From: a virus
Taxonomy: Duplodnaviria > Caudoviricetes
Virus record (IMG/VR): IMGVR_UViG_3300031993_000012
Span: 32,001-96,000 of that record
Strand: one strand, 5' to 3'
Length of the DNA stretch: 64,000 nt
Part shown: positions 1,095-9,073 of the stretch, in pieces
Layout of the letters: each line of letters begins with the position of its first letter
Numbering within the stretch: the first letter of the stretch is position 1
Notes under the pieces: generated by a model
Databases searched by the model: none
The model's input: the letters and a program-made list of their open reading frames with translations, nothing else
What the model was told of the DNA's origin: nothing
Program-made: the position numbers and the translations under genes

Positions 1095-3031
1095 ATAAGC
1101 TTGAAGTATTAACAATCGTAAAAGATTGGATACATGATTTGTCATATATTAATATGGAGACCGATGTTGAACATATTATGGATACTGATGGAGATACATT
1201 TAAAGTATATTATATTTCATCAGAATTCATAATTTCGATTACGTGGCTCGCACACAGTGAGTCTATCACCATTCTTATCAATCACCAATTTATCGCATCC
1301 ATTGAAAATAATGGTGAAATAGTTTATGATGAATCATACTACGAAGAAAAGCTTAAACCATTGGTTCAGTTTGATATTCGTTCTCTGATCAGCAGACTGA
1401 AACACCCACCGACGAAAGAATTCAAAGCATTCTGTAAAGGTGTTGAAGAATGGTTATCCCATTTGAATAATTCAACATTCAAATGGTATTGGTATTCTCC
1501 AACAGTGAATTCAATCGGTAAATGTTATAAAGTTAATGTTGGACCATTCGAGCGTTTATTCCATATCGAAAACTGTGATGGTGGAATTATACTGGATATC
1601 AATTATAATCAGACAATCAAATATATCGATGGTTTGGTAACAGTATTGCCTAAATCAGTAATTAAACCATTTACGTTTGAAGAAATATCACATTTACGTG
1701 ATACGATATTTTCCAGCATGCATAATGAGGAAAACAATCTCAAAATTATACGTATTGAGGAAATATTAAAACAGTGGTTATCGGATATGTCAATGACATA
1801 TACACGTAATGGTGAACATGCATATATTGCATGTATAACACAGCGTGGTTTACACCCATCTACGCACGCTCATATCGGCGTTAGTGTTCATGAGCAGAAT
1901 CCATGTATTTGGTTGTACAACACAACCAACCGCATTATTACATTCGATCCGGATAATAATTGGGAACCGGATATGTTAACTACATATTCTAATCATTATC
2001 CATTCTCTCATACTAATCTTACGAAACTCATGGCAATGTATGTTAAAGAATTTTGTGGTATTGATTATGAATTCCGCAATACAATATTTAATACAATTGA
2101 GCAGTTTTTAAAACGCAGATATCATGGGAGAATTGCGTTATCAAAAAACAATATCAAACATGTTAGATGGAATTTCCGTGGTAAAATCTTTGAATTCGTT
2201 TGGGTTCATGACAGATGGAGAGTATCTACTACCAATTTAGGTGTACACGTTCGAATCTCTGATATTTATCCATCTGGTGATATCAATATGGGTTCATGTA
2301 TAGGCTCAGAAGAAAAAGGTCTTATCAATGAAATCCGTGAAGCCATTAAACCAGTACCGGATTCCACGGATGAAGATTTACTGGAATCTATCAGTAAAGA
2401 ATACAGAACAATCACTGATGTACTGACTGATGATTTCAAGAAGAAAGTCAAGGAACGTAATACTGTAATTAATTCCAGTGATATTAATAATGTCATTAAC
2501 GTTATTAATGCTGGTGACATCCAGGAATTTCCTAGTAAAATTGAAGTTGCTGAGTCTATATTCCATCATAGACCTATAGATGAAATCAGAAAAGAGTTCA
2601 ATGATGCAGTTCATTCAATTAAACCGGAAACACTCTGGTTTGATTCAATGACTGATGTTATTGAAAATATTAAAAAGCAGGAGGAAAAAGAAATGCTTAT
2701 TGACGAAACATTGGCTGTTAAAATTGTTAAACAGCGGGGAGGTATGTATATACCGGAAATCAAACACGTACTCTTTAATGAGACAAAGCTTGTTACTACC
2801 GTAATATTTACGGATGGTGACAGAGTCACATCCAAATGCTGTGATGAAAATGTATTCGATCCCGAAATGGGATTCGCAATGTGCATCATGAAGAAGCTTT
2901 ATGGTAATCGCACACGTTTCCAGAAGGAAATCAAGAAATATCACAACGCAGGTATTCATCGGAATATCAAAATCGCAGAAAAAGCAGCGCGTAAAGAAAA
3001 AGAAAAAGAAGAAAACGACGCTGAAATATAA
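1091..3031 (+). CDS. large hypothetical protein with conserved phage C-terminal domain
   Basis: 646 aa; C-terminal IKHVLFN..VTTVIFTDGD..SKC....FDPEMGFAMCIMKK resembles a domain common in Bacillota phage proteins. Confidence 0.8.
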   Translation: MNKLEVLTIVKDWIHDLSYINMETDVEHIMDTDGDTFKVYYISSEFIISITWLAHSESITILINHQFIASIENNGEIVYDESYYEEKLKPLVQFDIRSLISRLKHPPTKEFKAFCKGVEEWLSHLNNSTFKWYWYSPTVNSIGKCYKVNVGPFERLFHIENCDGGIILDINYNQTIKYIDGLVTVLPKSVIKPFTFEEISHLRDTIFSSMHNEENNLKIIRIEEILKQWLSDMSMTYTRNGEHAYIACITQRGLHPSTHAHIGVSVHEQNPCIWLYNTTNRIITFDPDNNWEPDMLTTYSNHYPFSHTNLTKLMAMYVKEFCGIDYEFRNTIFNTIEQFLKRRYHGRIALSKNNIKHVRWNFRGKIFEFVWVHDRWRVSTTNLGVHVRISDIYPSGDINMGSCIGSEEKGLINEIREAIKPVPDSTDEDLLESISKEYRTITDVLTDDFKKKVKERNTVINSSDINNVINVINAGDIQEFPSKIEVAESIFHHRPIDEIRKEFNDAVHSIKPETLWFDSMTDVIENIKKQEEKEMLIDETLAVKIVKQRGGMYIPEIKHVLFNETKLVTTVIFTDGDRVTSKCCDENVFDPEMGFAMCIMKKLYGNRTRFQKEIKKYHNAGIHRNIKIAEKAARKEKEKEENDAEI

Positions 3032-3116
3032 AAAGGCAAAAGAAGTAACATATAATTACATCAATTAGAGATTGACGAACCTGTCAACTGAATGTTCAAT
3101 GTATAATTGATGACAT

Positions 3117-3199
3117 TACCGTTTGGCGACATACACAATCACTCATGTCGTTTCGATGAGTGTCAGACAGCAATCAATGTGTATGTTCGCCGACGGGTA
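3117..3199 (+). ncRNA. putative structured small RNA with internal hairpin + ACAGCAAT
   Basis: Long closing stem TACCGTTTGGCGACATACACA / TGTGTATGTTCGCCGACGGGTA enclosing CACTCAT-loop-ATGAGTG followed by TCAGACAGCAAT. Confidence 0.5.
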
Positions 3200-3204
3200 T
3201 TTGT

Positions 3205-3285
3205 GGATGTGTGGCGGAATGGCAGACGCGCTGGTCTCAAGTACCAGTTCCGAAAGGAGTGAGGTTTCGAGTACCTCCACATCTA
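3205..3285 (+). tRNA. tRNA-Leu(CAA)
   Basis: GGATGTG/CACATCT acceptor, CTGGT-CTCAAGT-ACCAG anticodon arm, long variable arm, GAGGT-TTCGAGT-ACCTC T arm; no encoded CCA. Confidence 0.9.
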
Positions 3286-3393
3286 TTACTGGGGTTACGT
3301 TTATATTACGGCTTCTGACTTTGCGGTTCATTGCGTAACTCCAGATCACCCCTAAAACCCGGGTAGCCTTTGCGTATCTACCCGGGCAAAAAA

Positions 3394-3507
3394 CGACGGA
3401 TAACTCAGTAGGTAGAGTACGTAAAGGAATCTAGATTTAGATTCGTACAGCAATCAGCTTGCATTCTAAGCACGGTGTCGTAGGTTCGAGTCCTACTCCG
3501 TCGACCA
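3394..3507 (+). ncRNA. tRNA-like gene with 38-nt insertion in anticodon stem (TCT/Arg anticodon if removed)
   Basis: Perfect acceptor CGACGGA/TCCGTCG+ACCA, D and T arms; insert 3423-3460 splits CGT|GC; residual arm CGTGC-ATTCTAA-GCACG. Confidence 0.75.
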
Positions 3508-3508
3508 A

Positions 3509-3608
3509 TGGTCATGATGGGTAATTCCCCATCTTGTATTTAAGATGGTAACAGCAATCATCGGTGAATAAATGACGTTCGAATCGTAAATATTATTCAT
3601 CATGACCA
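3509..3608 (+). ncRNA. tRNA-mimic-like RNA with hairpin-ACAGCAAT module
   Basis: TGGTCATGATG/CATCATGACCA closing stem ending in CCA, CCATCTT/AAGATGG hairpin + TAACAGCAAT, T-loop-like ACG-TTCGAAT-CGT. Confidence 0.55.
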
Positions 3609-3614
3609 ATCTAT

Positions 3615-3722
3615 GCGGATATTAGCTCAATTGGATAGAGCGTACGGCCATAAGGAATCTAGATTTAGATTCGTACAGCAATAACACCATAAGGTTATCA
3701 GTTCGAATCTGATATATCCGCG
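3615..3722 (+). ncRNA. tRNA-Arg-like body with anticodon loop replaced by the hairpin-ACAGCA module
   Basis: GCGGATAT/ATATCCGC stem, GCTC-AATTGGATA-GAGC D arm, ATCAG-TTCGAAT-CTGAT T arm; 39-nt loop containing AAGGAATCTAGATTTAGATTCGTACAGCAAT. Confidence 0.7.
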
Positions 3723-3726
3723 AATC

Positions 3727-3835
3727 AAACCCATTAGCCGCATAGTTTAGAATAGGTTAAAACGCTGAATATAATCTGAGCATACTAGGACTATTCGGAA
3801 AAGGTTGTTCGAATCGACCTGGGGTTAATGAGTTT
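3727..3835 (+). ncRNA. degenerate tRNA-like RNA with enlarged anticodon arm
   Basis: D arm GTTT-AGAATAGGTTA-AAAC, CTGAATA/TATTCGG stem with 20-nt loop, GGTTG-TTCGAAT-CGACC T arm, extended closing stem. Confidence 0.55.
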
Positions 3836-3843
3836 AATCATAT

Positions 3844-3960
3844 GAAGGTGTTAGTTTAGTTGGTTAAAACGCGTTAAGGAATCTAGTGATAGATTCGTAC
3901 AGCATATTATTTGCATATGGCGCACGAGACACATGTTCAAATCATGTACACCTTCTTCCA
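3844..3960 (+). ncRNA. tRNA-His-like gene with 38-nt insertion in anticodon stem (ATG anticodon if removed)
   Basis: 8-bp GAAGGTGT/ACACCTTC acceptor (G-1:C73-like); insert 3875-3912 splits CGT|GC; residual arm CGTGC-ATATGGC-GCACG. Confidence 0.7.
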
Positions 3961-3963
3961 GAT

Positions 3964-4570
3964 GTGACATTAGCGCAGTCGGTAGCGCATTCGCTTTAAA
4001 GGAGAAATAATATGGAATTATCAACACATGCTAAAGGAGTTGTAACAGAATTAGCTGTACAACAAGCATTCATTAAACATGGATTCGGCGTATCAGTCCC
4101 AGTGTTACCCACTTCTAGATATGACATGATTGCTGATATTGATAGCAATTTATTCAAAGTCCAAATTAAAACAGCTAAGAAACTTCCAAATTCAGATGCC
4201 TTTATGATCAGAACGAAATCAACTAGAACACATCGATACGGTGTATCCGTTGTTAAATATACAGCGGATGAAATTGATATGTTTGCTACATGTTATAATG
4301 GTGATGTCTATGTTGTTCCACAATATTTAGCACAAGGAACTGAATTCATTTTTAGAAATTCATCAGCGAGTAACCAGAAAGTTGGTATTCATTTTGCATC
4401 TGATTTTAAGTTGGATAATGTTGTTGAAAAATGGAGAAATCAATCATTATCATTCAACAATAACCAACTTTATTTGAATAATAATGTATTATGATTATAT
4501 GATATTATTCAAATATAATAATTATCCTTTAAAGCGTGGGTCGTGGATTCGAGTTCCACATGTCACACCA
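3964..4570 (+). tRNA. tRNA gene interrupted in its anticodon loop by an endonuclease ORF
   Basis: 5' half GTGACAT-TA-GCGC-AGTCGGTA-GCGC-A-TTCGC (3964-3994); 3' half GCGTG-GGTC-GTGGA-TTCGAGT-TCCAC-ATGTCAC-ACCA (4534-4570); acceptor halves perfectly complementary. Confidence 0.8.
4012..4494 (+). CDS. PD-(D/E)XK endonuclease, PDDEXK_5 / I-Ssp6803I-like homing endonuclease family
   Basis: KG..TE...F.K.G..VS.P.....RYD.I.D......VQIKT pattern; RBS AAAGGAGA. Confidence 0.8.
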   Translation: MELSTHAKGVVTELAVQQAFIKHGFGVSVPVLPTSRYDMIADIDSNLFKVQIKTAKKLPNSDAFMIRTKSTRTHRYGVSVVKYTADEIDMFATCYNGDVYVVPQYLAQGTEFIFRNSSASNQKVGIHFASDFKLDNVVEKWRNQSLSFNNNQLYLNNNVL

Positions 4571-4726
4571 TTGCGGTCTTCAGACAGCCGCAACAATTCC
4601 TAATCACGGCTGGCACTTATACATCCCTTCGTGTCAGCCACATATGTAACCAATGAGCTTGTCCATCTCAGAGGTTGCACCTCAATTGACAGCGATATCC
4701 ACGCCGCTGTTACATATCCTTTCATT

Positions 4727-4754
4727 TACGGCAGCTCCTTCGGGAGCTGCTGTA
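4727..4754 (+). terminator. stable UUCG hairpin closing the RNA island
   Basis: TACGGCAGCTCC-TTCG-GGAGCTGCTGTA; no clear U-tract, so it could be a processing or stability hairpin. Confidence 0.45.
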
Positions 4755-4782
4755 GTACCATTTATCTTTAGGAGGAATTTTT

Positions 4783-5523
4783 ATGTTACCCGAAATAATC
4801 AATTATGCTGATGAGAAAACTCACGAATTTCGTAAATCCATTGTCAGTGGTAAACCAAAAACAATATTGGTTATACATGATGATGACAGATCGAAATATC
4901 TTGGATTGTTTGCTATGTTAAGCGGCAATAAATGTGAGATAATAAACAATTCAACCGCAATGTATCATATATCCCACGACGTTATATTTGACGATGGTAT
5001 ATCAATTGATGATATTACATTCAATATATTTGATAAAGGTAATCTTTCTGAAACTCATGTCAGAATGGTAAAAATGCCAGATGATATATTAAATGAAACC
5101 ATCAGAGATATTGCATTAGGTAAAATAACCGAAGCTCCATTAGTAGTAAGCTTGTTGACGATGTATGAAAAATGTAATGGTACGGAATATATGACCAAAG
5201 TATACACAGATGTCAGATGCGATGATAAAACTGTCGATTTATATCATGATAATCATTATAATGTCACATCAAATTCAGAGAGAATCAAATCTACGGATCC
5301 TTATGATCAGATGGAAACAGCCATGATATTTAAAAACTATTTATCATATGGATTGACTGTGTGGTATATATTCCAAAAGGTCATTGGTGATGATGAATTA
5401 AAACAGTTCGTCACCAAATGCAAATGTAAACACAAATATTGTGGTAAAGAAATAACTGTTACTAAATATTCAATAGCATGTCAGAAATTGATACTTCATT
5501 TGGCTGAACGTATGAAAAAATAA
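4783..5523 (+). CDS. hypothetical protein
   Basis: 246 aa, RBS AGGAGG; followed by hairpin ATCCCCAGA/TCTGGGGAT + T run. Confidence 0.8.
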   Translation: MLPEIINYADEKTHEFRKSIVSGKPKTILVIHDDDRSKYLGLFAMLSGNKCEIINNSTAMYHISHDVIFDDGISIDDITFNIFDKGNLSETHVRMVKMPDDILNETIRDIALGKITEAPLVVSLLTMYEKCNGTEYMTKVYTDVRCDDKTVDLYHDNHYNVTSNSERIKSTDPYDQMETAMIFKNYLSYGLTVWYIFQKVIGDDELKQFVTKCKCKHKYCGKEITVTKYSIACQKLILHLAERMKK

Positions 5524-5602
5524 TATGATATCCCCAGATAATTCTGGGGATATATTTTTTGTGTAATATGAACATTAGAGTATAAAAACATTACATGAAT
5601 GA

Positions 5603-5677
5603 TTCCGTATCGCCAAGGGGTTAAGGCAGATGTCTTTGAAGCATCTATCGCTCGTTCGATCCGAGCTACGGAAACCA
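5603..5677 (+). tRNA. tRNA-Gln(UUG)
   Basis: TTCCGTA/TACGGAA+ACCA, GATGT-CTTTGAA-GCATC anticodon arm, GCTCG-TTCGATC-CGAGC T arm. Confidence 0.92.
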
Positions 5678-5919
5678 AAGGAAGTTTACTTCCAAACAGA
5701 TGTGAGGTTCACGTTTTCACATTTGTCTCCTTAACTTTTAGCCATGTGGATACTAGTTGCCACCTTCTCTGGTATCCACGCGCTTCTTTTGTTCTATATC
5801 CTACTTCTAATTTTAGCCCGGGTTATTCCCGGGCATCTATTTTTTTCAAATTCCATATTTATATTATTTAATTGGATTCTATGAACGTAGAATCAAAAAT
5901 ATATCGGAGGTATAAAAAT

Positions 5920-5994
5920 ATGTTTGCAAAATTAATCGAATTCATTAGAGGTATCGTATCATTCCTGAGCGGAATGTTATTTGCCATCAGATAA
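5920..5994 (+). CDS. 24-aa amphipathic peptide (not in ORF track)
   Basis: MFAKLIEFIRGIVSFLSGMLFAIR; RBS GGAGGT; stop overlaps RBS of next gene. Confidence 0.55.
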   Translation: MFAKLIEFIRGIVSFLSGMLFAIR

Positions 5995-6007
5995 GGAGGA
6001 ACATAAA

Positions 6008-6845: not shown

Positions 6846-7306
6846 TGGAAGACAAAATATATATTCATTATGGATCAGATCATTTTGACCCAGAATTATT
6901 TAAAGAAGCGGAATATGAATCTGAGTTCGATTTTAAACCCTATAAAGGTGGATTATGGGCATCAGAGGACACGGATGATGAGTCATATCATTCTTGGCGA
7001 GAATGGTGTGAAATAGAATGTTTTGAACTTTATAGGTTAGAAACATCTTTCCGTTTCAAACTTGCGGAACATCAGAAACCATTCGTAGTTAAAGATGATT
7101 CTATTATTGAAACTAAATATTGTGGTTATTGCAACCCATACAATATTCATCGATTTTCTCGGTTACATCTGAATTTAGATGAACTCAAACGTGATGGATA
7201 TACTCATATTGAGTTTCATAAAAATTCATGGACACACTGGGCTTTCTATAGCTGGGATTGCGATTGTATATTAATATTGGACCCAACGGTAATAGTCCCA
7301 GTGTGA
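6845..7306 (+). CDS. conserved-looking phage hypothetical protein
   Basis: YIHYG...KP.KGGLWAS...WREWC...WDCDCILIL motifs; RBS AAGGAG. Confidence 0.8.
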   Translation: MEDKIYIHYGSDHFDPELFKEAEYESEFDFKPYKGGLWASEDTDDESYHSWREWCEIECFELYRLETSFRFKLAEHQKPFVVKDDSIIETKYCGYCNPYNIHRFSRLHLNLDELKRDGYTHIEFHKNSWTHWAFYSWDCDCILILDPTVIVPV

Positions 7307-7861: not shown

Positions 7862-8161
7862 ATGAAACTGTACAATGATTCATCAAACAACAAACAAATC
7901 GCAATCAAAGATATCATATACATGATAACGCAATTGGATAAATTTATCCAATTATATGACAAATGTATATACGAAACTGACGATGAACAACGTCGTGCAA
8001 TTACTAAACTGGAAGACATTGTTCATCTGTTCAAAAAACGCGACTTCGAATATTTGTTCGAAGATAAAATCAATCTGATTGATTGGGATACAACAACATC
8101 AAAATTCACTCCAGATGAAATAAAAGCATGGAGAGAATTCTTCAAAAAGAATCCGTATTGA
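7862..8161 (+). CDS. hypothetical protein
   Basis: 99-aa ORF in operon. Confidence 0.7.
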   Translation: MKLYNDSSNNKQIAIKDIIYMITQLDKFIQLYDKCIYETDDEQRRAITKLEDIVHLFKKRDFEYLFEDKINLIDWDTTTSKFTPDEIKAWREFFKKNPY

Positions 8162-8176
8162 AAGGAATGATAAACA

Positions 8177-9073
8177 TTGGATATCACACAATTTAAACCA
8201 TTCGTAATCGAGAAGCTACTATTGTCGTTGGTCAGACGACATCAGATTCGTTCGGTTACAAACACAGATACTCGTTTTGATATAGAAACGGAGAACCATA
8301 TAATTCATGGTTATTCGTATGAAGCACATGGTCTCCAATGTTTATCAATATCAATTGAACGAAATAAAGTTGAAGAATATTTAATAAAACTATATTACTC
8401 TGAACAAACGAAATATCACGAAATGATGAAACAACATTTATCGACATTCGATGCTGATGTGTTATCACCTTTGAACAATGTATTTGATGATTGGGATCAT
8501 GGTCGACTGGCTGTGATCTCATTCGGTCATCGTGATTCTGTTGCAAATTTATTTCGTTATAAAATTGCTGTCAGTCAACAAAACAAGTTAATGATTGCTC
8601 GATCCAAAAGTGGATTTTCATATGCATTCTTAGATTCCGATATGAAATCATTTATTGAGAATCGTGATCTAGGAATTACGACGAATATCATATTAAGGAG
8701 ACTTGATAATTTGGAATTTAAATCGTTGACTTCCGAAATGCCATTTGGTCCAGCGTTAGAGTTATTTGAAGACGCTATCAAAACTCCACTTGAAAAACCA
8801 CCTATACATTACAATATCATCACAATCAATTCGCGACCACCATATATTATGAAATCTCCTACGAGAAATGTATGGATTGTTGTATTAGAAATCGACGAAA
8901 AACATTCTAAATGTCGATCTGGTTATATTGATAATGAACCAGATCCATATGCAATATCGTGGAATGTATATAATATACGAACTACGAAGATATACTACTA
9001 TAAAGAATTACGTCGATATCAAATAATGCGTGGAAATGATTGTGTGGATATCACACATCTAATACGTGAATAA
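8177..9073 (+). CDS. hypothetical protein
   Basis: 298 aa, TTG start after AAAGGA. Confidence 0.75.
   Translation: MDITQFKPFVIEKLLLSLVRRHQIRSVTNTDTRFDIETENHIIHGYSYEAHGLQCLSISIERNKVEEYLIKLYYSEQTKYHEMMKQHLSTFDADVLSPLNNVFDDWDHGRLAVISFGHRDSVANLFRYKIAVSQQNKLMIARSKSGFSYAFLDSDMKSFIENRDLGITTNIILRRLDNLEFKSLTSEMPFGPALELFEDAIKTPLEKPPIHYNIITINSRPPYIMKSPTRNVWIVVLEIDEKHSKCRSGYIDNEPDPYAISWNVYNIRTTKIYYYKELRRYQIMRGNDCVDITHLIRE

What the first reader, a model, noticed from the sequence alone, without database searches (positions are those of the whole stretch)
3394..3960. tRNA genes carrying the same hairpin-ACAGCA module in the anticodon arm
Seen: three tRNA bodies contain AAG-GAATCTA-NNNN-TAGATTC-GTACAGCA. 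In two (3423-3460, 3875-3912) the insert is exactly 38 nt at the same site (CGT|GC). Removing it restores a perfect CGTGC/GCACG stem and 7-nt loop (TCT; and ATG on a His-like 8-bp acceptor). In the third it replaces the loop and is flanked by a CCATAAGG direct repeat (3648, 3687), whose removal would leave no loop. Established: bacterial tRNA introns are normally large self-splicing group I/II introns. Inference: either a protein-spliced mini-intron, or a family of tRNA-scaffolded RNAs displaying a protein-binding module, e.g. decoys for anticodon nucleases or Y-RNA-like RNAs.
Basis: partly seen in the sequence, partly recalled or inferred. Interest (0 to 1): 0.82.

Follow-up and report, generated by a model that had tools for sequence, protein, structure and literature searches.

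The report
Invariant hairpin insert in phage tRNAs
A group of ~250-kb gut and rumen phages carries the same 36-39-base hairpin inside the anticodon stem of otherwise normal arginine and histidine-like tRNA genes; both the tRNA and the insert appear to be under selection, yet the insert fits no known intron, ribozyme or repeat, so how it is handled is an open question.

Summary
The window has three exact copies of WAAG + 7-bp hairpin + GUACAGCA, and the 182-kb record has no others. Two are 38-nt inserts at CGU|GC (tRNA position 29/30). Removing them in silico gives tRNA-Arg(UCU) and a G-1:C73 tRNA with anticodon AUG. I found the insert in every relative examined, 14 distinct genes on three tRNA bodies.

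There are two separate signals of selection. Acceptor, D and T stems are 100% paired, with 14 of 17 pairs changed on both sides. Twelve of 14 genes keep a perfect 5-bp anticodon stem and a 7-nt loop. The module itself is almost invariant (3 of 26 columns vary, against 47 of 66 in the scaffold). It stays intact in two genes whose anticodon arm is destroyed.

It is not a group I intron, a BHB intron, an Rfam family, a CRISPR-repeat copy or a dispersed mobile element. No RtcB, RNA ligase, EndA or Ro60 gene was found in the partial genomes.

Best reading (about 0.4): a protein-excised intervening sequence whose hairpin RNA has a role of its own. The main rival is a tRNA-scaffolded protein-binding RNA that is never removed. 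The scan has reported other hairpin mini-inserts in phage tRNAs on other DNA, but not this family.

The parts
3394..3507 (+). tRNA-Arg(UCU) gene with encoded ACCA end. Exon 1 is 3394-3422, the insert 3423-3460, exon 2 3461-3507.
   Evidence: Rfam tRNA 44.4 bits with a 49-nt insertion. ARAGORN calls Arg(tct) after in-silico removal. 110 of 114 positions are identical to L039.
3423..3460 (+). 38-nt insert at tRNA position 29/30. Parts: AAAG (3423-3426), hairpin HP1 (3427-3444; 7 bp, loop GAUU), GUACAGCA (3445-3452), and a linker whose GCAA (3450-3453) can pair with UUGC (3459-3462) to form HP2.
   Evidence: Arm model R1 scores 80 bits here.
3615..3721 (+). tRNA-like gene on the GCGGATA body with an 8-bp acceptor. 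The module is intact (HP1 3655-3672, GUACAGCA 3673-3680), but the anticodon 3' strand and loop are missing. The direct repeat CCATAAGG lies at 3648-3655 and 3687-3694.
   Evidence: R1 scores 35 bits. ARAGORN finds no tRNA after removal. Against L230 the module is 26/26 identical, with 21 differences in 66 scaffold columns.
3844..3955 (+). tRNA with G-1:C73 and anticodon loop AUAUGGC (AUG). The 38-nt insert is 3875-3912 (HP1 3879-3896 with loop GUGA; GUACAGCA 3897-3904).
   Evidence: R1 scores 69 bits. ARAGORN calls His(atg) after removal.
3118..3200 (+). Long-stem leader RNA at the start of the tRNA transcript. Inside it a 6-bp hairpin is followed by ACAGCAAUCA (3167-3176). Its link to the module is uncertain.
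   Evidence: Fold z-score -4.4. The 10-mer occurs only three times in 182 kb, all within 400 nt. Not a hit of model R1. The A of ACAGC is not kept in the leaders of relatives.
3508..3600 (+). tRNA-like RNA with a 10-bp terminal stem and a T-loop-like UUCGAAU. It holds an 8-bp hairpin followed by ACAGCAAUCA (3551-3560). Its link to the module is uncertain.
   Evidence: 96% conserved in L237:7132-7236. Not a hit of R1.
3735..3828 (+). tRNA-like paralogue of the 3844-3955 gene (near-identical D arm, 8-bp acceptor). Its anticodon arm is enlarged and has no HP1.
   Evidence: ARAGORN low-stringency call and inspection. No relative found.
3964..4570 (+). Neighbouring tRNA-Lys(UUU), split at position 33/34 by a 530-nt insert that is almost entirely a PD-(D/E)XK homing-nuclease ORF (4012-4494). 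This is context only and not part of the module family.
   Evidence: An uninterrupted Lys gene exists in L039.

Best explanation
The insert is a clade-specific intervening sequence in real phage tRNA genes. The ancestral host gene was tRNA-Arg(UCU); some lineages now carry it in a G-1:C73 tRNA with an AUG or CUG anticodon.

It always sits between nucleotides 29 and 30, on the 5' strand of the anticodon stem. It consists of WAAG, a 7-bp hairpin with a free 4-nt loop, the invariant octamer GUACAGCA, and a variable 6-9-nt linker.

At 36-39 nt it is too small to splice itself, and it is under purifying selection of its own.

Proposed mechanism (inferred, not shown):
1. The precursor folds as a cloverleaf whose anticodon stem carries the insert as a bulged arm.
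2. A sequence-specific protein reads the hairpin and its flanks and cuts at both edges of the bulge.
3. The two exon ends stay paired to the GCACG strand, so they form a nick in a helix that an RNA ligase can seal.
4. The released ~38-nt hairpin RNA, or its complex with the protein, has a function of its own. This would explain why the module survives intact in genes whose anticodon arm has decayed.
For: **The host genes are tRNAs.**
- Removing the insert gives ARAGORN-grade tRNAs in 12 of 14 distinct genes: Arg(tct) in 7, His(atg) in 3, Gln(ctg) in 2.
- Acceptor, D and T stems are 100% paired, and 14 of 17 pairs changed on both sides. No shuffle out of 500 reached the observed score.
- The inner anticodon pairs G30:C40 and C31:G39 and a 7-nt loop are kept in 12 of 13. 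Seven genes have the loop AUUCUAA and one has CUUCUAA.
- AGA makes up 26% of Arg codons and CAU 81% of His codons in this phage.
- Only lineages with an NUG anticodon carry a tRNA-His guanylyltransferase (Thg1) gene 3-4 kb upstream. That covers all of L014/L050/L053, L241, L052 and L236, and none of 9 other lineages.

**The insert is selected in its own right.**
- Only 3 of 26 non-loop module columns vary, against 47 of 66 scaffold columns, 4 of 4 loop columns and 6 of 8 linker columns.
- One hairpin pair changed A:U to U:A in L237.
- The module is 26/26 identical in L225 and in window copy 2, although their anticodon arms are destroyed. L225 still shows two compensatory stem changes.

**The insert cannot self-splice by any known route.**
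- Its length is 36-39 nt, and it has no Rfam hit even at E<=10.

**Distribution.**
- Every relative examined carries it.
Against: - There is no expression or junction data, so removal of the insert is pure inference.
- No RtcB, Rnl1/Rnl2-type ligase or EndA gene was found in the 182-kb record (68% complete) or in two partial relatives. The enzymes would have to be host-encoded or of an unknown family.
- The distance from the hairpin to the 3' edge varies (14-17 nt), so a single ruler measured from the hairpin cannot set both cuts.
- Survival of the module in two dead tRNAs is not expected of a mere intron and fits the scaffold rival equally well.
- Four genes have A33 in place of the near-universal U33.
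- The Thg1 association may reflect a single evolutionary event, and L054 (CUG) has no Thg1 within 10 kb.
- Invariance of all seven stem pairs is unusual for RNA recognised by a protein.
Confidence: 0.4

Rival explanations
1. The RNA is a tRNA-scaffolded functional RNA and the insert is never removed. The tRNA body supplies expression, RNase P/Z processing and stability. The hairpin with its 4-nt 5' and 8-nt 3' flanks is the payload: a high-affinity site for a host or phage protein. One possibility is a decoy or sponge for a defence nuclease, including a CRISPR-repeat-like 'RNA anti-CRISPR'.
For: - The module is far more conserved than its carrier and persists where the anticodon arm is gone.
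- The scaffold stems of those two genes still pair, with compensatory changes.
- The layout (4-5 nt, hairpin with a free loop, invariant 8 nt, about 30 nt in all) matches the layout of type I-E/I-F CRISPR repeats as I recall them. Phage solitary repeat units that act as RNA anti-CRISPRs are known (PMC10651486).
- Four genes lack U33.
Against: - The canonical Arg loop and a perfect 5-bp stem with a 7-nt loop are kept in most lineages, which a mere scaffold does not need.
- Anticodon identity tracks the presence of Thg1.
- No array or any other copy of the repeat was found in 185,579 species genomes. The single match was a chance hit in a coding region.
- The JGI metagenome collection gave seven matches, all of them the phage tRNA genes. 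That collection includes samples in which the phages were found.
- No Ro60/TROVE gene was found.
Confidence: 0.28
2. The insert is a selfish palindromic DNA element, or the footprint of a homing-nuclease cassette, that landed in tRNA genes and inactivated them. On this view its uniformity comes from gene conversion in a recombination hot spot, not from any function.
For: - The tRNA cluster is packed with HNH and PD-(D/E)XK homing nucleases.
- tRNA alleles are mosaic between phages: 95-100% identical within an allele class and 55-70% between classes, and the classes do not follow phage lineages.
- Different tRNA bodies share the same anticodon stem and partly the same D arm, as co-conversion would produce.
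- An interrupted 7+4+7 palindrome is a typical site for a dimeric DNA-binding protein.
- Two carriers are clearly dead as tRNAs.
Against: - The loop and linker have diverged freely while the stem and flanks have not, which is the opposite of homogenisation.
- The scaffolds show compensatory evolution and no disruptive changes.
- The insert sits at exactly the same tRNA position and orientation in three bodies and occurs nowhere else in 182 kb.
- No uninterrupted allele of this anticodon arm exists in IMG/VR.
- Thg1 co-occurs with the anticodon type.
Confidence: 0.12
3. The tRNA works with the insert in place. The anticodon stem still forms, the 38 nt protrude as an extra arm, and this arm recruits a factor or shields the tRNA from host anticodon nucleases.
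For: - The insert lies in the stem, so the 7-nt anticodon loop stays continuous.
- Both inner stem pairs are conserved.
- The cloverleaf with a bulged arm is within about 2 kcal/mol of the alternative with HP2.
Against: - I know of no tRNA with an extra arm in the anticodon stem.
- From general knowledge of ribosome structure, the anticodon stem is closely packed in the A and P sites, so a clash is likely.
- This reading does not explain the two carriers without an anticodon arm.
Confidence: 0.1
4. The arm is a new small ribozyme. Its three-way junction of outer stem, HP1 and HP2, with invariant junction strands WAAG and GUACA, would cleave or splice itself.
For: - The invariant purine-rich junction strands next to helices with free loops resemble small self-cleaving ribozyme cores.
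- HP2 keeps its GCAA/UUGC stem while its loop varies from 3 to 7 nt.
Against: - No match to any ribozyme family in Rfam 15, even at E<=10.
- HP2 is broken in L054 and L236 and absent in window copy 2.
- Exact excision plus ligation by a roughly 40-nt RNA is unprecedented.
Confidence: 0.08

Closest known systems
'Enigmatic' introns in tRNA genes of Lak megaphages (Devoto et al. 2019, PMC6784885), and the other hairpin mini-inserts in jumbo-phage tRNAs noted earlier in this scan
   Same: Both are short, non-ribozyme inserts in phage tRNA genes. In both, the insert sequence is nearly identical between genomes and the way it is removed is unknown.
   Different: Those inserts were mapped as anticodon-loop introns by tRNAscan in eukaryotic mode, and some look like mini-tRNAs. 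This one lies in the anticodon stem at 29/30. It is one sequence family shared by tRNAs of different identity, and it persists where the tRNA has decayed.
Archaeal protein-spliced tRNA introns at non-canonical positions (bulge-helix-bulge, EndA plus RtcB; review PMC4090602)
   Same: Both are small introns that can sit in stems, are removed by proteins and restore an exact cloverleaf.
   Different: I could not draw a bulge-helix-bulge motif at these junctions. No EndA homologue was found. Archaeal intron sequences are not conserved in this way. The host here is a bacterium.
Group I introns of bacterial tRNA genes (bioRxiv 10.1101/2020.01.27.920355; PMC3984707)
   Same: Both interrupt the anticodon arm of a bacterial-type tRNA. 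In both a U precedes the 5' junction and homing nucleases are found nearby.
   Different: This insert is 36-39 nt, whereas from general knowledge a group I core needs more than 200 nt. It has no catalytic core and no Rfam hit, its last base is U or C rather than G, and it sits in the stem rather than the loop.
Archaeal tRNA-Trp intron that carries a box C/D guide RNA (from my own knowledge, not checked here)
   Same: It is a precedent for a tRNA intron that is itself a functional small RNA. That is the dual role proposed here.
   Different: It belongs to a different RNA class and a different domain of life. No C/D boxes are present here.
RNA anti-CRISPRs / solitary repeat units of phages (Camara-Wilpert et al. 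2023, PMC10651486)
   Same: Both are phage-encoded RNAs of about 30 nt made of a short 5' flank, a hairpin and an 8-nt 3' flank, kept invariant in sequence.
   Different: No matching CRISPR repeat was found in genomes or metagenomes. This RNA is embedded in a tRNA rather than standing behind its own promoter.

Membership tests
Group I intron in tRNA | Catalytic core (P3-P9) detectable by the Rfam Intron_gpI model | tested here: not met
   The insert is 36-39 nt. cmscan over 2900-6000 at E<=10 gave no intron hit.
Group I intron in tRNA | U before the 5' splice site and G as the last intron base | tested here: not met
   U29 precedes the insert in 12 of 14 genes, but the last insert base is U (or C in L054 and L236), never G.
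Protein-spliced (archaeal/eukaryal type) tRNA intron | Removal restores a canonical cloverleaf | tested here: met
   ARAGORN calls a tRNA in 12 of 14 genes after in-silico removal.
Protein-spliced (archaeal/eukaryal type) tRNA intron | Bulge-helix-bulge at the two junctions | tested here: not met
   By inspection of the alignment and the folds, the intron ends can form only 2-3 A-U/G-C pairs. I could draw no 3-4-3 motif.
Protein-spliced (archaeal/eukaryal type) tRNA intron | Splicing endonuclease and RNA ligase available | tested here: inconclusive
   PF01974, PF01139, PF09414 and PF09511 are absent from G000 (68% complete), and PF01139 and PF09414 are absent from two partial relatives. The PF09511 search matched nothing in any control genome either, so it is uninformative. 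The host genome is unknown.
Protein-spliced (archaeal/eukaryal type) tRNA intron | Spliced RNA detected | not testable with these tools
   No transcript data are available.
RNA anti-CRISPR / solitary CRISPR repeat unit | Sequence similarity to a CRISPR repeat of a host | tested here: not met
   Exact-pattern scans of GTDB species genomes gave one chance hit in a coding region. The JGI metagenome scan found only the phage tRNA genes, one match per contig. Diverged repeats would have been missed.
RNA anti-CRISPR / solitary CRISPR repeat unit | Repeat-like layout (hairpin plus 8-nt handle) | tested here: met
   4-5 nt, then a 7-bp hairpin with a 4-nt loop, then the invariant 8-mer GUACAGCA.
Bacterial Y RNA / YrlA with Ro60 (Rsr) | Rfam Y-RNA match and a TROVE-domain partner | tested here: not met
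   No Rfam hit. PF05731 is absent from G000.
Known self-cleaving ribozymes (hammerhead, twister, pistol, hatchet, HDV-like) | Match to the family covariance model | tested here: not met
   No such match at E<=10.
Miniature palindromic mobile element (MITE, REP, IS200/IS605-derived) | Many dispersed copies and target-site duplications | tested here: not met
   There are only three copies in 182 kb, all at the same tRNA position. Only copy 2 has flanking direct repeats.

The most novel reading that the evidence does not exclude
Bacteria or their phages may have a protein-dependent tRNA splicing route. A sequence-specific factor would excise an invariant hairpin from the anticodon stem (29/30), and the exons, held together as a nicked helix, would be ligated. 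The excised ~38-nt hairpin RNA would itself be an effector, for example an inhibitor or decoy of a host defence nuclease. One gene would then yield both a tRNA and a small RNA.
Probability: 0.25. Interest if true: 0.85.

Novelty: new variant of a known kind. Interest (0 to 1): 0.66.

Why it matters
Protein-dependent tRNA splicing is regarded as a trait of archaea and eukaryotes. In bacteria and phages only self-splicing introns have been shown to work.

Short unexplained inserts in phage tRNAs have been noticed, but their fate is unknown. This family is a good test case for four reasons:
- It is small.
- It has a sharply defined invariant core.
- It occurs in tRNAs of two identities and in decayed carriers.
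- It comes with natural variants: six different loops, one compensatory pair and two broken HP2 stems.

Showing either excision or a bound protein would reveal one of two things: a new RNA-processing activity, or a new way for phages to deliver a small RNA on a tRNA carrier.

Tried and rejected
- **Rfam.** Searches at gathering and E<=10 thresholds returned only tRNA.
- **Phage GenBank collection.** No near match. Distant matches covered tRNA parts only.
- **CRISPR-repeat mimic.** The GTDB genome scan gave one chance hit in a coding region.
- **Uninterrupted allele.** A search for the D-stem plus CGUGCA-N6-GCACG arm in IMG/VR gave 45 hits, all in coding sequence.
- **Relaxed module pattern.** That scan was wasted.
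- **VIPR link.** The array start in the window and the VIPR preprint show no similar hairpin.
- **Antisense target.** No exact reverse complement of ACAGCAAUCA exists in the genome.
- **tmRNA-like reading.** Reading frames from the GCA codon give no consistent tag, and ARAGORN finds no tmRNA.
- **One family of five?** The arm model R1 does not hit the leader RNA or the 3508-3600 RNA. Relatives have GCAGCA rather than ACAGCA in their leaders. I therefore treat the 'five-member family' as unproven beyond the shared 10-mer.
- **Arg gene as a recent transfer.** The 96% identity of the Arg gene between the window and L039 at first suggested this. It turned out to be part of the general mosaicism of the whole cluster.
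- **Candidate processing enzyme.** The 246-aa ORF inside the cluster (4783-5523) has no Pfam or PHROG hit. The Atlas gave only weak leads (0.82). The AlphaFold model was unusable at pLDDT 30.
Full report
**1.

The sequence shows three tRNA-like bodies on the + strand, at 3394-3507, 3615-3721 and 3844-3955. Each contains AAGG, a 7-bp hairpin (GAAUCUA / UAGAUUC) with a 4-nt loop, and GUACAGCA. The pattern occurs exactly three times in the 182-kb virus record that holds the window, all here and all in one orientation. A reversed-pattern control found none.

In copies 1 and 3 the extra segment is 38 nt (3423-3460 and 3875-3912) and lies between CGU and GC. Deleting it in silico gives sequences that ARAGORN calls tRNA-Arg(tct) and tRNA-His(atg). 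Rfam's tRNA model already scores copy 1 at 44 bits across a 49-nt insertion.

Copy 2 has the module but no 3' anticodon strand.

**2. Setting**

The window is part of a 182-kb IMG/VR record estimated to be 68% complete. Relatives assemble to 240-254 kb.

The genes sit in a small tRNA cluster just downstream of a 646-aa ORF. The order in the window is:
- a long-stem leader RNA;
- Leu(CAA);
- the Arg gene with the insert;
- a tRNA-like RNA;
- copy 2;
- another tRNA-like RNA;
- copy 3;
- a tRNA-Lys(UUU) split by a PD-(D/E)XK homing-nuclease ORF;
- Gln(UUG).

**3. The family**

I found relatives by three routes: exact-pattern scans of IMG/VR and JGI metagenomes, a search with the conserved C-terminal domain of the upstream ORF (92 homologues), and retrieval of the flanking DNA of those homologues. 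Every relative whose tRNA cluster could be read carries the insert.

Fourteen distinct genes were aligned (A2):
- **CGACGGA body, encoded ACCA end, UCU anticodon:** window copy 1, L039, L237.
- **The same body, anticodon arm destroyed:** L225.
- **GCGGATA body with G-1 paired to C73, UCU anticodon:** L230, L234, L238, L232. L242/L243 is a further variant of this type that was not included in the alignment.
- **GCGGATA body, loop AAAUGAA (AUG):** L014, L052. L240 and L241 are identical to L014.
- **GCGGATA body, loop AACUGGA (CUG):** L054, L236.
- **GCGGATA body, arm destroyed:** window copy 2.
- **A third body with G-1:C73 and loop AUAUGGC (AUG):** window copy 3.

The insert is 36-39 nt long and always lies after nucleotide 29.

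**4. Conservation has two layers**

Counting pairs on A2 gives the following:
- The acceptor, D and T stems are 100% paired, and 14 of their 17 pairs changed on both sides.
- No shuffle out of 500 reached the observed covariation score, and all slid controls collapse.
- This includes the two genes without an anticodon arm. L225 differs from L039 by C1:G72 to G1:C72 and by a G:C to U:A change in the T stem.

All 14 are therefore maintained as folded tRNA-like RNAs.

The anticodon arm is also maintained. The pairs C27:G43 and G28:C42, U29:A41 (paired in 12 of 14), and the two inner pairs G30:C40 and C31:G39 (paired in 12 of 13) are all kept. The loop is exactly 7 nt in 12 genes. In eight of them it is the standard Arg loop: AUUCUAA in seven and CUUCUAA in L237.

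On top of this, the module is almost frozen. Only 3 of 26 non-loop columns (AAGG, both hairpin strands, GUACAGCAA) vary among the 14 genes. By comparison, 47 of 66 scaffold columns, 4 of 4 hairpin-loop columns and 6 of 8 linker columns vary. The hairpin loop takes six forms: GAUU, GUGA, GAUG, GUUG, CAUC and GUAU. The only stem change is compensatory, A:U to U:A in L237.

A second small helix (HP2) forms between GCAA, which overlaps the invariant octamer, and UUGC, whose last two bases are G30 and C31. It is kept in 11 of 13 genes, with loops of 3-7 nt. It competes with the inner anticodon pairs, and the two folds differ by about 2 kcal/mol.

**5. What it is not**

- **Rfam family, including ribozymes, Y RNA and group I:** none matches, even at E<=10.
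- **Group I intron:** the size, the last base (U or C) and the position in the stem exclude it.
- **Bulge-helix-bulge intron:** I could not draw the motif at the junctions.
- **Copy of a CRISPR repeat or a type III antitoxin repeat:** a scan of 185,579 species genomes gave one chance hit in a coding region. The metagenome scan returned only the phage genes, one match per contig.
- **Dispersed mobile element:** there are three copies in 182 kb, all at the same tRNA position.
- **Variant of an existing uninterrupted allele:** no uninterrupted tRNA with this anticodon arm exists in IMG/VR.
- **Known processing enzymes:** RtcB, Rnl2-type ligase, EndA, TROVE/Ro60 and Thg1 genes are absent from the partial genome. 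The Rnl1-type search matched nothing in any control genome either, so it says nothing. RtcB and Rnl2-type ligase are also absent from two partial relatives.

A covariance model of the arm (R1) finds only the three copies in the window. The two other RNAs that carry a hairpin followed by ACAGCAAUCA (3140-3176 and 3529-3560) are not hits. The 10-mer itself is not chance: it occurs three times in 182 kb, all within 400 nt and on one strand. In the leaders of relatives, however, the first base is not kept. I therefore leave the link open.

**6. Evidence that the anticodon matters**

A Thg1-family gene (tRNA-His guanylyltransferase; PF04446; phrog_4717 at E = 3e-77) lies 3-4 kb upstream of the cluster in L014/L050/L053, L241, L052 and L236. 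These are exactly lineages whose insert-bearing tRNA has G-1:C73 and an NUG anticodon. None of nine lineages with UCU or a destroyed arm has it, and neither does the window's genome.

The caveat is that the Thg1 lineages may form one clade, so this could be a single event. L054 (CUG) has no Thg1 within 10 kb.

CAU is 81% of His codons and AGA 26% of Arg codons in this phage. Both an AUG-anticodon tRNA-His and a tRNA-Arg(UCU) would therefore be useful to it.

**7. Interpretation**

The tRNA layer says that in most lineages the product should work as a tRNA. The insert must then be removed or tolerated.

The module layer says that the hairpin and its flanks are read in a sequence-specific way, and that they are kept even where decoding is impossible.

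A plain intron explains the first layer only. A plain scaffold explains the second only. A selfish DNA footprint explains neither the free divergence of loop and linker nor the compensatory changes.

The reading that covers both layers is an intervening sequence with a job of its own:
1. A protein recognises the hairpin plus WAAG and GUACAGCA.
2. The arm is cut out at the edges of the bulge.
3. The exon ends remain paired to GCACG as a nick that a ligase can seal.
4. The released hairpin RNA, or its protein complex, acts elsewhere.

Every step after folding is inferred. I put this reading at about 0.4. The never-removed scaffold or decoy reading is at about 0.28, and the others are lower.

**8. 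The neighbourhood**

The cluster is a recombination hot spot. HNH and PD-(D/E)XK homing-nuclease genes are scattered through it. The Leu, Lys and Gln genes occur as allele classes that are 95-100% identical within a class and 55-70% between classes, and the classes are distributed incongruently among phages.

This explains why the window's Arg gene is 96% identical to that of L039 while its neighbours are 68-76% identical. It could also explain how one anticodon arm came to sit on three tRNA bodies.

**9. Novelty**

Short unexplained inserts in phage tRNAs were reported for Lak megaphages (PMC6784885). This scan has noted other, unrelated hairpin or mini-tRNA inserts in jumbo phages.

This family differs in four ways: it sits in the stem at 29/30, it has an invariant core, it is shared by tRNAs of different identity, and it persists in decayed carriers. 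I class it as a new variant of a barely characterised kind.

Noticed in passing
L236:4233-4976, L014:9896-10624, L241:129-875, L052:3-182: A Thg1-family tRNA-His guanylyltransferase gene lies 3-4 kb upstream of the tRNA cluster in some relatives. Only lineages whose insert-bearing tRNA has an AUG or CUG anticodon on a G-1:C73 body have it, though L054 (CUG) has none within 10 kb. From my own knowledge, a phage Thg1 is unusual.
   Followed up: partly
window 3204-5677 against L039, L225, L230-L243: The Leu, Lys and Gln tRNA genes occur as allele classes that are 95-100% identical within a class and 55-70% between classes. The classes are distributed incongruently among related phages, next to HNH and PD-(D/E)XK homing-nuclease genes. 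tRNA-Met stays 93-100% identical throughout. This looks like nuclease-driven cassette exchange, as with T4 SegB.
   Followed up: partly
window 3964-4570; L237:7239-7903: tRNA-Lys(UUU) is split at position 33/34 by an insert that consists almost entirely of an ORF encoding a PDDEXK_5 nuclease. L237 has a second such case, and there the insert also holds what looks by eye like a tRNA with anticodon UUA (about L237:7290-7360).
   Followed up: partly
window 3426-3441 and the same place in relatives: AAGGA, then 6 nt, then AUG, UUG or AUU in the hairpin loop, followed directly by UAG, forms a Shine-Dalgarno plus start-stop mini-ORF in several loop variants. It is absent from the GUGA and GUAU variants. 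This may be chance.
   Followed up: no
window 4573-4600; L039 about 3925-3950; L230 about 8300-8340; L237 about 7905-7925: A conserved hairpin directly after tRNA-Lys has the loop UCUUCAGACAR. Its stem covaries between phages (GCGG/CCGC against GGUGG/CCACC).
   Followed up: no
window 3735-3828: A further tRNA-like gene has an 8-bp acceptor and nearly the same D arm as the 3844-3955 gene. Its anticodon arm is enlarged (6-bp stem, 22-nt loop) and has no hairpin module. No relative was found.
   Followed up: partly
window 3345-3393; L039:2465-2512; L225:8322-8369; L237 about 6975-7020: A 9-bp GC-rich hairpin (CCCGGGUAG / CUACCCGGG) followed by an A run travels with the CGACGGA-type Arg gene as one conserved cassette.
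   Followed up: no
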